Positions 26,131 through 29,100 of a stretch of 33,542 bases of DNA are shown here, one piece after another. How positions within the stretch are numbered: the stretch's first letter is position 1; each line of letters opens with the position of its first letter. The position numbers and the translations under genes are program-made. The stretch is from positions 1-33,542 of the forward strand of contig CAXCDZ010000003.1 of assembly GCA_963981525.1 (NCBI GenBank). Reading direction: 5' to 3'. The notes beneath the pieces were generated by a model. That model was given only the letters and a program-made list of their open reading frames with translations. It did not search any database and had not been told where the DNA came from. The stretch is from an uncultured bacterium. GTDB taxonomy: Bacteria > Patescibacteriota > Microgenomatia > UBA1400 > UBA12108.

Positions 26131-29100
26131 TTATCACACCTCGAGTACGCGCACGACGGACACGTCGCACACCCTTCTTCCATTCGCAGTGCTCCTGAGC
26201 ACTCTGGACACTTCTCCTTCTGCTCACCGTTAGGCTCAAACGGCTTCTTCTTAGAGAGCACTACCTGTTCACGCGACCCCTCCACGTAAACTGTCATTCC
26301 TTTAAGTCCCAGTTTCCATCCCAACTGATAAGCATGCGCTACATCATCTGCCGTAGCTGAGGGTGCAAAATTAACAGTTTTTGAGATCGAGTTATCAACC
26401 CATCTCTGCATTACCGCCTGCATTCGTACATGCTCCTCAACTGACAGGTCAGATGCCACCACGAAGTTGTCCCTGATCTCCTCTGGTATCTCCTCCACTC
26501 CCTGGCAACTCCCATCATTCTCACGCACTGTCTCAAAAATCTCATTCCTCTGTTTCTTCTTAATCCCATGTTCCAAGAGTTTCTTTGCAAACAATTGACT
26601 CTCGTACTCAATCTCGATCCACTCCTTCCCTTCTTCCTCTGCTCCCTCTCTCGTGTTTCGCGTATAACTAAGTGCGTAGACTGGCTCACACCCATATCCC
26701 TCTAGTCCCGAAATAGTCGCAATACTCCCAGTTGGTGCGACTGTGGTCTGCGCACCATTTCTAATCCCCCATTTCTGAATACCTTCTTCGATCTCTTTCC
26801 AGACTAGTTTTGGCCTATTCCAGTTAGTCTTGTGCCGTACGAGTGGTTTTGGTGCCTTCCAGATCATATTCGTTGGATCATAAACACTCCCCGTAATCCC
26901 AGGGAATGCCCCGCGGTTACGCGCAAGCTCCACGGACGCTTTCATTGTGTGATATCTCACAAACTCCATAATCTGACTCGCATACTCCTGACCCTTCTTC
27001 GAGCCATACCGCACTCCCACCAGATACATCATGTCCGAGAGCCCCATCACGCTTACTCCTATCCTTCTCACTTTCTTTGCCGCCTCCTCTAGTTCTGGTA
27101 CTGCTGCCACATACTTATTCACATCCACCACATTGTCCAGTAATCTCACGGTCCACTTAACAGTCTCAGCTAGCTTCTCCCAATCTGGAACCATCTCTCC
27201 ATTCATCTTCTTTACATGATTAGCCAGGTTCACACTCGCCAAACAACAGTTCTCATAACTTCCTAAAAATTGCTCGCCACACCCTCTCGAAACATACCCA
27301 TTAGTAATCCATGTATCACTCTTTTTTTCATACAAATCATACACCTTAGCCTTTCCCGCTGGCTCAATCTTCACTACTTTTGCAGCCCAATTACCACCTG
27401 TAAAGTTGCACGTTAGCGCTGCTCTTTTCATTCTCTCTTGCTTTTCTGGATGACTCAATCGTATTTGCTTGTAAAATTTCCCAAAACTATCTCCAACAAT
27501 AACCACATCATATTTAGGATTTTTATTACTTATTATTCTCCCATCCTTTGTTTTATGTTTTGTCCTTTTACTCGTATATTTTCTCCCATGAATCCCAAAC
27601 ATCAGAAGTATCCTTCTTACTTGGCTCGCCAACTCCTCACTCCCTGTATGAAATCTTACTAATGGATGATTGCTCGAAAGATCAACGCTCCCATCAGTAC
27701 TAAATAATCCATCTAATAGTCCTTCCAAAATCTTCCTATTACTATTTATGTATTCCTCGGGAATTTCTTTATTAAGTGAGGTTGTTGGAATTAATTTTAG
27801 TGATTTCACATAATCAGCTATCACCTTCCCTGGTTTTGGATCCATCATCATTGACTTACTATTTTTATTTACATAGGTATAACAGTCAGTTGCACCCACC
27901 TTCTCAAACACATCTTTCACAACCTGATTCCAACTATCTTCATCCGCATGAGTACTCACTCTCACCACATTTTTTGACAATGCTCTTTCTGTATAACAAC
28001 CGTCGCCTAGCAACACCCCAACTAAAAACCCAAAATCACGATCATCTATCTTTACATTTCCCTGCTCAACTTTATTATTTGGCATCATCCCCTCAAAAAC
28101 TCTTACCATCTGTCCTTCTTCTAGATTATCTAATCTTGTTGGTTTAAAAAACTTTGTTGTTGTATCTCGAGCATGGAATTGATGTGCTACAGTCGCCCTT
28201 ACTATTCCTCCATCAGAAAAATACACATCAAAAACTGATTTTTCATCATGAATTTCAATTGATTCCACTTTGCCTTCACCGAGTACTGTACAGATTTTCT
28301 CCCCCTCTTTAATATTTTCCACTTTCCGCCACCCACCTGGAGTAGCCACAAGAGTCCCCTCCACCACACATGGATTAGTAGCCTCAAGATCATATAGATT
28401 AGGCACCGGATTATCTCTGTTAGCTGCATCCAAAAACAGCACTCCCGGCTCACCATTCTTGTACGCATACTTGACGATCTCTCCGTATAGCTCACGTGCC
28501 GGCACCATCTTCCATAGCTCTCCGTTCTCCGGATATCTAAGGGCAAAATCATCATCATTCTCCACTGCCTGCATAAACTCATCCGTCAGTCCCACCGAAA
28601 TATTAAAGTTCTCAATCTGCCCCTCTTCTGCCTTACATCTAACAAACTCATGAATATCAGGATGCCATACTGGCAGTGTTGCCATTGCCGCACTTCTTCT
28701 CCCTCCTCCTTGTCCGATTACCCAAAAAGCTGTATCAAATACCTTGATAAAAGATACCGCACCCGTCGCCTTTCCTTTTCCAGTTCCGATTACTCCTCCT
28801 TTGGGTCTAATCCTCCCAAACGAGAACCCTACCCCTCCACCAGTCTGCAAAGTCAGAATCGACTTGCGCAAAACCGAGAAGATCGAGTCCGTCCCTTTAC
28901 CCAAGTCATCATCCACCGGAAGCACAAAACAGTTAGCAAGCTGTCCGTACTTAGTCCCCGCATTCGCCATCGTTCTCCCGTTTGGCACCACTCTCAACTC
29001 TGCCATCATCTCAAGCATCTTTTCCTCTACTTGCTTGAGTGTCACCCCATTACGATAGTTGTTCTCCGCCTCCGCCACTACTCGTGCCGTTCTCACAAAT

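What the first reader, a model, noticed from the sequence alone, without database searches (positions are those of the whole stretch)
27282..28370. Intein ending in Arg-Gly, not His-Asn, directly before the catalytic cysteine of NrdJ
Seen: the C-terminal junction is ...WITNGYVSRG|CGEQ (TCG AGA GGG|TGT). GGG differs from Asn codons at all three positions and from Asp or Gln codons at two, so a single-base error is unlikely. Cys1, block B TxxH, block F Asp and both LAGLIDADG motifs are intact. Known: standard splicing resolves the branched intermediate by cyclising the terminal Asn, with Gln and Asp as characterised variants; Gly has no side chain for this. Inference: either non-canonical splicing chemistry (for example the Asn of upstream 'TNG', or backbone attack), conditional splicing, or a non-splicing intein tolerated because of two paralogs. 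Similar termini may already exist among RNR inteins in InBase; I cannot verify that.
Basis: partly seen in the sequence, partly recalled or inferred. Interest (0 to 1): 0.82.

Follow-up and report, generated by a model that had tools for sequence, protein, structure and literature searches.

The report
Glycine-ended intein family in NrdJ
A self-removing protein insert in an enzyme that makes DNA building blocks ends in glycine instead of the asparagine thought to be needed for its removal, and every close relative examined shares this, which points to an undescribed way of protein splicing.

Summary
The 363-residue intein (window 27282-28370, minus strand) sits in front of the radical cysteine of a class II ribonucleotide reductase and ends Ser-Arg-Gly|Cys. 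It is not an error or a decaying copy. Contigs from four other studies match with no differences. All 120 listed close homologs end in Gly, as do 72 of 79 genome loci and 9 of 9 examined viral loci.

Gly-enders form one deep clade spanning Chloroflexota, Patescibacteria-type genomes, archaea and viral contigs. Their neighbours on the tree are Asp-, Asn- and Gln-ended inteins at the same site. Only two conserved columns separate the clade from those relatives:
- **Position -1:** Gly.
- **Position -12 (the block F histidine position):** Asp in 66 of 66, but Leu/Phe/Tyr in Asp-enders.

Cys1, block B TxxH, the block F Asp and Cys+1 are all kept.

In five of five large Chloroflexota genomes this gene is the only recognisable RNR, and 146-149 residue mini-versions exist, so the intein almost certainly splices. 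My best reading is canonical steps 1-2, then a C-terminal cleavage that uses the Asp at -12 in place of a terminal side chain. Splicing itself is untested. Ten literature searches found no description, and two reviews list only Asn, Gln, Asp or Glu.

The parts
26127..29201 (-). nrdJ-A precursor gene (1024 aa): class II ribonucleotide reductase interrupted by the intein
   Evidence: ORF; PF02867 2.4e-121 and PF00317; TIGR02504 588.5 bits in two pieces (to residue 279, from residue 639)
28371..29201 (-). N-extein (residues 1-277), ending ...LEATNP
27282..28370 (-). Intein, 363 residues, from Cys1 to the terminal Gly363
   Evidence: AlphaFold2 model with pLDDT 87.1; best fold matches are the TliVMA intein, PI-SceI and PI-PfuI
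28368..28370 (-). Cys1 (TGT), the nucleophile of splicing step 1
   Evidence: Cys in 66 of 66 Gly-enders
28182..28193 (-). Block B T-V-A-H (intein T60, H63)
   Evidence: T in 62 of 66 and H in 66 of 66 Gly-enders
27381..28058 (-). LAGLIDADG homing endonuclease domain (approximate limits). Motifs LLGDG (D123, 28002-28004) and FSTDG (D226, 27693-27695)
   Evidence: PF14528 5.2e-15; fold matches to I-DmoI and I-OnuI type endonucleases
27336..27338 (-). Block F Asp (intein D345, the 'YDL' Asp)
   Evidence: D in 66 of 66 Gly-enders and in all relatives
27315..27317 (-). Asp at position -12 (intein D352), in the place of the block F histidine; the proposed catalytic carboxylate
   Evidence: D in 66 of 66 Gly-enders against L/F/Y in 11 of 11 Asp-enders; D in 120 of 120 close homologs
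27285..27287 (-). Arg at position -2 (AGA), in place of the penultimate His
   Evidence: among 65 representatives R 44, Q 14, V 5, L 2
27282..27284 (-). Terminal Gly (GGG), in place of Asn
   Evidence: contigs of 4 runs agree; all four Gly codons are used across 72 loci
27279..27281 (-). Cys+1 (TGT), the RNR radical cysteine of the NPCGE motif
26127..27281 (-). C-extein (residues 641-1024)
23027..26062 (-). nrdJ-B paralog carrying a different, canonical intein (24038-25222) at the same site, ending VVHN|CGEI. It serves as an internal comparator: His at -12, His at -2, Asn at -1
20103..22433 (-). nrdJ-C paralog with an ATP-cone and no intein (STNPCGEQ uninterrupted)
29198..29650 (-). NrdR repressor gene immediately upstream of nrdJ-A
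   Evidence: PF22811 and PF03477

Best explanation
This is a working, mobile intein (a HINT splicing domain plus a LAGLIDADG homing endonuclease). It belongs to a large and old clade that occupies the NP|CGE site of class II ribonucleotide reductases and whose last residue is always Gly.

Steps 1 and 2 of class 1 splicing are kept: the acyl shift at Cys1 and the transfer of the N-extein to Cys+1. Every residue assigned to those steps is conserved.

Step 3 cannot be cyclisation of the last residue. The three residues that normally serve step 3 have all been replaced: the block F His by an invariant Asp, the penultimate His by Arg, Gln or Val, and the terminal Asn by an invariant Gly.

I propose that the Asp at -12 supplies the carboxylate from across the strand. 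It sits opposite residue -1 in the C-terminal beta-hairpin. It would act on the Gly carbonyl either as a nucleophile, forming a transient anhydride, or as a general base for water. Gly leaves room for it.

This amounts to moving the carboxylate of the related Asp-ended inteins from position -1 to position -12.

Shown here: the sequence, its conservation, the pairing of the two sites, the fold and the need for function. Inferred: that splicing occurs, and the chemistry.
For: Conservation:
- Gly at -1 and Asp at -12 in 120 of 120 listed close homologs (58-71% identity).
- 76 of 95 mapped 50%-identity cluster representatives end in Gly.
- 72 of 79 genome loci with a mapped junction end in Gly, and 9 of 9 examined viral loci.

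Selection:
- All four Gly codons, both Asp codons and all six Arg codons are used at these sites across 72 loci.
- No in-frame stop occurs in any of the 80 translated genome stretches.

One clade:
- On a tree of 85 inteins built without the last three residues, the 66 Gly-enders need 1 change (SH-aLRT 79; 0 of 500 shuffles as low).

Two-site signature:
- Of 31 columns conserved at 90% or more in Gly-enders, only -12 and -1 differ from the relatives.
- Gly-enders have D and G; Asp-enders have L/F/Y and D; Asn/Gln-enders have N/H/Q at -12 and mostly N at -1.
- Cys1, T60/H63 and D345 are shared.

Need for function:
- In 5 of 5 large Chloroflexota genomes (4.9-10.4 Mb, one of them a single 5.37 Mb chromosome) the only PF02867 match is this gene, and there is no PF13597 match.
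- Mini-inteins of 149 and 146 residues keep the same ends.

Geometry:
- The model has strands at -11..-9 and -5..-2, and Gly at -6 is invariant. This fits a two-residue turn that pairs -12 with -1.
- The review PMC4031507 places the His at F:13 next to the terminal Asn (passages read).

Fold:
- pLDDT 87.1; TM 0.63-0.68 to solved endonuclease-bearing inteins.
Against: No experiment shows splicing. Everything rests on conservation and on the gene being indispensable.

The D/G pair arose once on the tree, so the pairing is a single evolutionary event and not a repeated correlation.

I had no model coordinates, so the contact between -12 and -1 is inferred from the secondary-structure string and turn logic.

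From memory only (paper not held): Amitai et al. 2004 reported C-terminal cleavage of an Ala-ended mutant of the Asp-ended Chy RIR1 intein. In my Asp-enders, position -12 is hydrophobic. So this lineage may have a cleavage route that needs no carboxylate at all.

The five 'sole RNR' genomes are metagenome assemblies whose completeness the tool did not state.

In the window's own genome, three other RNR genes could mask a dead copy.

The Pfam model Intein_splicing did not match this protein at E<=0.01.
Confidence: 0.55

Rival explanations
1. The intein splices, but through a second acyl shift. The Gly-Cys+1 amide rearranges to a thioester on Cys+1. The freed amine of Cys+1 attacks the N-extein thioester on Cys1 directly. 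The remaining intein-Gly thioester is then hydrolysed, or is captured by Cys1 to give a circular intein. The Asp at -12 acts only as a general base.
For: Gly is invariant rather than merely small: 66 of 66 and 120 of 120. That suits a reaction needing an unhindered, flexible carbonyl next to Cys. The review PMC4031507 describes aminolysis of the N-terminal thioester for type A BIL domains. From memory: Hedgehog autoprocessing performs its acyl shift at a Gly-Cys bond, and the Ala-ended Chy RIR1 mutant still cleaved at its C-terminus.
Against: The block F Asp D345, linked in the review to activating Cys+1 for step 2, is invariant. That suggests the ordinary branched intermediate is still formed. 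In that intermediate the Cys+1 thiol is occupied and cannot accept the Gly acyl group. No known intein uses this order of steps.
Confidence: 0.2
2. The insert cuts itself out, or cuts one or both junctions, without joining the exteins, and the RNR works as two non-covalent fragments. Alternatively, the insert stays in place.
For: The terminal residue cannot cyclise. BIL-type HINT domains that only cleave exist.
Against: The insert lies directly before the radical cysteine of NPCGE, at the catalytic centre. All step 1-2 residues and Cys+1 are kept as in splicing inteins. The element sits at a classical homing site, with a LAGLIDADG endonuclease and patchy distribution (2 of 401 genomes of its own phylum), like ordinary inteins. 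Sister inteins at the same site end in Asn or Asp.
Confidence: 0.08
3. This copy is a dead or decaying intein in a redundant gene, tolerated because the genome has other RNR genes.
For: The 0.90 Mb genome has four PF02867 genes.
Against: The 1024-codon frame is open. The termini are identical to those of 120 homologs at 58-71% identity. Both endonuclease Asp residues and all splicing blocks are intact. The extein scores above the NrdJ cut-off. In relatives the same gene is the sole RNR.
Confidence: 0.04
4. Removal needs a trans factor, such as a host protease or another HINT domain, and is not autocatalytic.
For: There is no direct evidence. Some hosts carry a second intein in the same protein (lengths around 1650 aa) or a tandem intein at the same site.
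Against: The element occurs in bacteria, archaea and viral contigs, so a shared factor is unlikely. Most carriers have only this one intein (lengths around 1030-1240 aa).
Confidence: 0.05
5. The GGG codon is a sequencing or assembly error.
For: None.
Against: Contigs from 4 runs of other studies show 0 differences. 20 listed runs from 16 studies hold the stretch. Homologs share the residue.
Confidence: 0

Closest known systems
Asp-terminated RNR inteins (Chy RIR1 type; Amitai, Dassa and Pietrokovski 2004, recalled, paper not held)
   Same: Same insertion site (NP|CGE), and the same Cys1, TxxH, block F Asp and Trp at -10. They lie on the other side of the tree from the Gly clade, together with the Asn- and Gln-enders. 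They also lack the terminal Asn and the two helper histidines.
   Different: They end in [L/F/Y]-Asp, with a hydrophobic residue at -12 and an invariant Asn at -7 (11 of 11). Gly-enders have Asp at -12, Gly at -1 and a variable -7. A terminal Asp can cyclise; Gly cannot.
Gln-terminated inteins (CIV RNR, Pab Pol II; review PMC4031507, passages read)
   Same: Class 1 inteins that splice with a non-Asn terminal residue.
   Different: Gln still has a side chain that can cyclise.
Canonical class 1 LAGLIDADG inteins with solved structures (TliVMA 7qsu, PI-SceI 1vde/1ef0, PI-PfuI 1dq3)
   Same: Same two-domain fold, TM 0.63-0.68. Same Cys1, TxxH, block F Asp and +1 Cys.
   Different: Sequence identity is 9-16%. 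No close solved relative exists by sequence (best E 4.2e-07, N-terminal part only). The canonical inteins end His-Asn.
[quoted passage not shown]
   Same: Precedents for whole clades that splice after replacing a 'universal' catalytic residue, each arising once.
   Different: Those changes affect step 1 (no Cys1; class 3 uses Cys at F:4). Here step 1 is canonical and step 3 is altered. F:4 is Asp and Cys1 is present.
Bacterial intein-like (BIL) domains and Hedgehog HINT domains
   Same: HINT domains that work without the standard block G. Hedgehog cleaves at a Gly-Cys bond (recalled).
   Different: BILs sit in variable proteins and lack the +1 nucleophile. This element sits in an essential active site with Cys+1 and carries a homing endonuclease.

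Membership tests
Intein (class 1) | In-frame insertion at a conserved site of a host protein, whose flanks rejoin to a normal host motif | tested here: met
   Flanks ATNP and CGEQ rebuild NPCGE, as in the uninterrupted paralog nrdJ-C. TIGR02504 matches in two pieces around the insert.
Intein (class 1) | Cys or Ser at position 1 and Cys, Ser or Thr at +1 | tested here: met
   Cys1 and Cys+1.
Intein (class 1) | Block B TxxH | tested here: met
   T60 and H63.
Intein (class 1) | Block F Asp (F:4) | tested here: met
   D345, in 66 of 66.
Intein (class 1) | Block F His (F:13) and penultimate His (G:6). These are common but not universal. | tested here: not met
   Asp at -12 and Arg at -2. The mapping of -12 to F:13 rests on the alignment with the window's own canonical intein and on recall of numbering in solved inteins.
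Intein (class 1) | C-terminal Asn (or Gln, Asp, Glu) able to cyclise | tested here: not met
   Gly (GGG) at 27282-27284. Reviews list only Asn, Gln, Asp, Glu or Asn, Gln, Asp.
Intein (class 1) | HINT fold | tested here: met
   Model pLDDT 87.1, pTM 0.88. Top fold matches are inteins.
Intein (class 1) | Autocatalytic excision with ligation of the exteins | not testable with these tools
   Supported only indirectly: sole RNR in 5 of 5 genomes and retained mini-inteins.
LAGLIDADG homing endonuclease | Two LAGLIDADG motifs, each with an acidic residue, in the double alpha-beta-beta-alpha-beta-beta-alpha fold | tested here: met
   PF14528 5.2e-15. D123 and D226 are present. Fold matches to I-DmoI and I-OnuI. 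Cleavage activity was not tested.
Class 3 inteins | No N-terminal nucleophile; Cys at F:4; the Trp-Cys-Thr signature | tested here: not met
   Cys1 is present and F:4 is Asp.
BIL domains | No +1 nucleophile; found in variable, non-essential proteins | tested here: not met
   Cys+1 is invariant, and the host is the catalytic site of NrdJ.
Class II ribonucleotide reductase (host) | Match to the NrdJ equivalog model above its cut-off; NPCGE active-site motif | tested here: met
   TIGR02504 588.5 against 399.95.

The most novel reading that the evidence does not exclude
Gly-ended RNR inteins are a fourth mechanistic class of inteins. Step 3 is carried out not by the terminal residue but by an Asp placed across the C-terminal hairpin. 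It would either form a transient side-chain-to-C-terminus anhydride or activate water. Alternatively, a second acyl shift at Gly-Cys could release a circular intein. The class is widespread in Chloroflexota, Patescibacteria, archaea and phage-like contigs, and includes natural 146-149 residue mini-inteins.
Probability: 0.45. Interest if true: 0.9.

Novelty: new variant of a known kind. Interest (0 to 1): 0.8.

Why it matters
Cyclisation of a terminal Asn (or Gln or Asp) is treated as the one step common to all intein classes. A 2020 paper calls these residues the only omnipresent ones in class 1 inteins.

A large natural clade that does without any cyclisable terminal residue would show that the HINT fold can break the C-terminal junction by other chemistry. 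The question is directly testable with a small construct and about six point mutants.

There is also a practical side. An intein that leaves a plain Gly carboxylate, or a reactive anhydride or thioester, instead of a succinimide could be useful in protein engineering. The natural mini-versions give compact starting points.

Finally, intein finders and annotation rules that require a terminal Asn will miss or mis-call these elements.

Tried and rejected
**Upstream Asn of 'TNG' as the cyclising residue.** Rejected. It is Asn in 21 of 119 close homologs and 8 of 65 representatives.

**Cyclisation of the -3 residue.** Rejected. The position is Gln, Ser or Asn (32, 23 and 9 of 65), and cleavage there would leave two residues on Cys+1.

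**Shifted boundaries (Val...Cys).** Considered. This gives the same product, but an insert with no N-terminal nucleophile, so the Cys...Gly frame was kept.

**First genome scan with the single protein.** It found nothing. The scan with alignment A1 worked.

**Sequence search of solved structures.** It gave only weak partial matches (best E 4.2e-07), so no residue-level structural mapping was possible. No model coordinates are available to scripts, so I could not measure the Asp(-12) to Gly(-1) distance.

**Expression.** No RNA holder was listed.

**Literature.**
- All ten searches found no paper on Gly-terminated inteins.
- I read passages only of PMC4031507, PMC4760082, PMC2807308, PMC7765530, PMC3653736, PMC4071816 and PMC7664689.
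- Amitai et al. 2004 is not held and is cited from memory.
- Subscription journals, InBase and supplementary tables of intein surveys could not be seen. They may list members of this clade.

**Rows dropped before counts.**
- One search used the 95 of 150 listed representatives whose best stretch reached query position 370 or beyond.
- One search kept 83 of 151 sequences with one full-length match.
- One search examined 9 of the 19 viral loci: the nine with the lowest E-values apart from the two 26%-identity matches L095 and L096, which were skipped.
- L050 lacks the junction because the contig ends.

**Organism labels.** Eight loci are labelled Pseudomonadales or Gammaproteobacteria. Two of them (L007, L008) have inteins 68-70% identical to the window's; the other six are 44-47% identical. 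I do not rely on those labels.
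Full report
**What is there.** The window's minus strand carries, in order:
- nrdR (29198-29650);
- nrdJ-A (26127-29201; 1024 aa);
- nrdJ-B (23027-26062; 1011 aa);
- a MazG-like gene;
- nrdJ-C (20103-22433; has an ATP-cone and no intein);
- maf;
- a corrinoid adenosyltransferase gene.

nrdJ-A is a class II ribonucleotide reductase (TIGR02504 588.5 bits against a cut-off of 399.95, matched in two pieces). 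It is interrupted between Pro277 and the radical cysteine of the NPCGE motif by 363 residues (window 27282-28370).

The junctions read ATNP|CVVEGTLV and WITNGYVSRG|CGEQ.

The insert has:
- Cys1;
- block B T60-x-x-H63;
- two LAGLIDADG motifs with D123 and D226;
- the block F Asp D345.

An AlphaFold2 model built on 14 sequences has pLDDT 87.1 and pTM 0.88. Its best structural matches are endonuclease-bearing inteins: TliVMA 7qsu, PI-SceI and PI-PfuI, with TM 0.63-0.68. No close relative has been solved (best sequence E 4.2e-07, N-terminal part only).

**It is not an error.** 20 listed public runs from 16 studies hold the stretch. Contigs of four runs not marked as a possible source cover the Gly codon with no differences.

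**It is not a one-off or a decaying copy.**
- A search of 5.8 billion proteins with the intein region gave 675 hits at E<=0.001.
- All 120 listed hits (58-71% identical) have Gly at -1 and Asp at -12. Of the 119 mapped, 117 end RG and 2 end VG.
- An HMMER scan of 1.84 billion cluster representatives gave 3221 hits at E<=0.001, of which 85 were at E<=1e-30.
- Among the 95 listed representatives whose match reached the C-terminal junction, 76 end in Gly (RG 52, QG 17, VG 5, LG 2). Twelve end in Asp, 6 in Asn and 1 in Gln, all before Cys of CGE.
- A scan of one genome per prokaryote species found 132 relatives.
- Of the 80 loci kept, 79 contain the junction. Of those, 72 end in Gly and 7 in Asp. 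None has an in-frame stop in the translated stretch.
- By record title, the Gly-enders come from Chloroflexota (44), Patescibacteria-type lineages, Poribacteria, Nitrospinota and seven archaea.
- Nine of nine examined viral contigs also end in Gly. Two of these are mini-inteins of 149 and 146 residues without an endonuclease.
- Within the window's own phylum the element is rare (2 of 401 sampled genomes), as expected of a mobile element.

**Selection.** Across 72 loci the terminal Gly uses GGA 31, GGC 15, GGG 14 and GGT 12. The Asp at -12 uses GAC 39 and GAT 33. The Arg at -2 uses all six codons. The residues are held while the codons drift.

**One clade, two diagnostic sites.** I built a maximum-likelihood tree of 85 inteins at this site with the last three residues removed. 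It places the 66 Gly-enders on one side of a branch (1 change, SH-aLRT 79; 0 of 500 label shuffles as low). The Asp-, Asn- and Gln-enders, including the window's own nrdJ-B intein, lie on the other side.

Of 31 alignment columns conserved at 90% or more in Gly-enders, 29 are shared with the relatives. These include Cys1, T60, H63, D345 and the endonuclease glycines and aspartates. Only two columns differ:

| Group | Position -12 | Position -1 |
|---|---|---|
| Gly-enders | Asp, 66 of 66 | Gly |
| Asp-enders | Leu/Phe/Tyr, 11 of 11 | Asp |
| Asn/Gln-enders | Asn/His/Gln | mostly Asn |

Position -12 is where the canonical intein of nrdJ-B has its block F histidine: ETHSF aligned with KSDTW, both seven residues after the YDL Asp.

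So the three residues that the review PMC4031507 assigns to step 3 are exactly the three replaced: His F:13, His G:6 and Asn G:7 (passages read). The residues for steps 1 and 2 are untouched.

**It must work.** In five of five large Chloroflexota genomes carrying a Gly-ender (4.9-10.4 Mb, one a single 5.37 Mb chromosome), the only match to the RNR barrel family PF02867 is this gene. There is no match to the class III family PF13597, although controls in 6 known genomes responded. These organisms therefore depend on the interrupted gene for deoxyribonucleotides.

Mini-inteins that have lost the endonuclease yet keep both ends point the same way. A paper on haloarchaeal inteins makes the general argument that mini-inteins are kept by selection for splicing (passage read).

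**How it most likely works (inference).** Steps 1 and 2 run as in class 1 inteins. For step 3, Gly has no side chain. The invariant Gly at -6 and the model's strands at -11..-9 and -5..-2 fit a two-residue turn. That turn would make -12 and -1 cross-strand partners. The block F His and the terminal Asn have the same spacing in canonical inteins.

I therefore propose that the Asp at -12 acts on the Gly carbonyl of the branched intermediate. It would do so either as a nucleophile, forming a transient anhydride, or as a base for water. Gly provides the space. This is the Asp-ender chemistry with the carboxylate moved across the hairpin.

The main rival is a second acyl shift at the Gly-Cys bond followed by direct aminolysis. 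The intein would then be released by thioester hydrolysis or as a circle. Gly-Cys is a favourable junction for such shifts, and aminolysis has a precedent in type A BIL domains. However, the invariant block F Asp argues that the usual branched intermediate is still made.

**Weaknesses.**
- Nothing here shows splicing directly.
- The D/G pair arose once on the tree, so the pairing is one evolutionary event.
- The -12 to -1 contact is not measured.
- The sole-RNR genomes are metagenome assemblies.
- In the window's own 0.90 Mb genome there are four RNR genes, so this particular copy could be dispensable.

**Comparison with what is known.** The closest described relatives are the Asp-ended RNR inteins of the Chy RIR1 type (from memory; paper not held) and the Gln-ended inteins. 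Reviews state that inteins end in Asn, Gln, Asp or Glu. [quoted passage not shown]

Ten full-text searches found no description of Gly-ended inteins. Members may well be listed in intein catalogues or survey supplements that I could not open. The haloarchaeal survey lists several rir1 alleles without discussing terminal residues.

**Verdict.** The decay reading and the 'TNG' reading are rejected. Non-canonical step 3 chemistry is the best-supported reading. I rate it a new variant of a known kind, with interest 0.8.

Noticed in passing
window 20103-29650 (-) and G000 contig C9:123-2333 (L002): A 0.90 Mb genome carries four class II RNR genes. Three lie in a row behind nrdR, and two of those hold different inteins at the same NP|CGE site: one ending Arg-Gly, one ending His-Asn. 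The fourth, on contig C9, reads VNLCGEQ (Leu where Pro is usual).
   Followed up: partly
proteins P0148, P0181, P0219: Tandem inteins at one site. An Asn-ended intein (...TGN...VSN...TGN) is followed directly by Cys1 of a Gly-ended intein and then CGE. The upstream intein would have to use the downstream intein's Cys1 as its +1 nucleophile.
   Followed up: partly
L094:3001-3471 and L099:3001-3459 (viral contigs): Natural mini-inteins of 149 and 146 residues with the same Asp(-12) and Arg-Gly ends, inside nrdJ genes of IMG/VR contigs. They are compact candidates for a splicing assay.
   Followed up: partly
position -16 of the intein family (window copy has Glu): Cys occupies -16, three residues after the block F Asp, in 30 of 65 Gly-ender representatives, and Glu in 28. 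The meaning is unknown.
   Followed up: no
window about 27225-27240 (-), C-extein: nrdJ-A reads ENCCLAS where paralogs B and C read ESCNLTS and DACNLGS. Two viral Gly-ender hosts, L087 and L088, also read NCCLG.
   Followed up: no
window 29789-30985 (-): A 398-aa ORF with no Pfam match ends in a Cys-rich motif resembling a zinc ribbon.
   Followed up: no
window 16104-18431 (-): A 775-aa protein with weak TraG/VirD4-type coupling-protein and HerA-like matches lies next to the nucleotide-metabolism cluster.
   Followed up: no
L007, L008, L058-L060, L062, L064, L075: Assemblies labelled Pseudomonadales or Gammaproteobacteria carry Gly-ended inteins. L007 and L008 are 68-70% identical to the window's; the other six are 44-47% identical. 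The labels may be unreliable.
   Followed up: no
window 26127-29201 (-): The Pfam model Intein_splicing (PF14890) matches the canonical nrdJ-B intein (1.5e-17) but not the Gly-ended one at E<=0.01. Hint_2 scores below its cut-off. Rule-based intein annotation may miss this clade.
   Followed up: no
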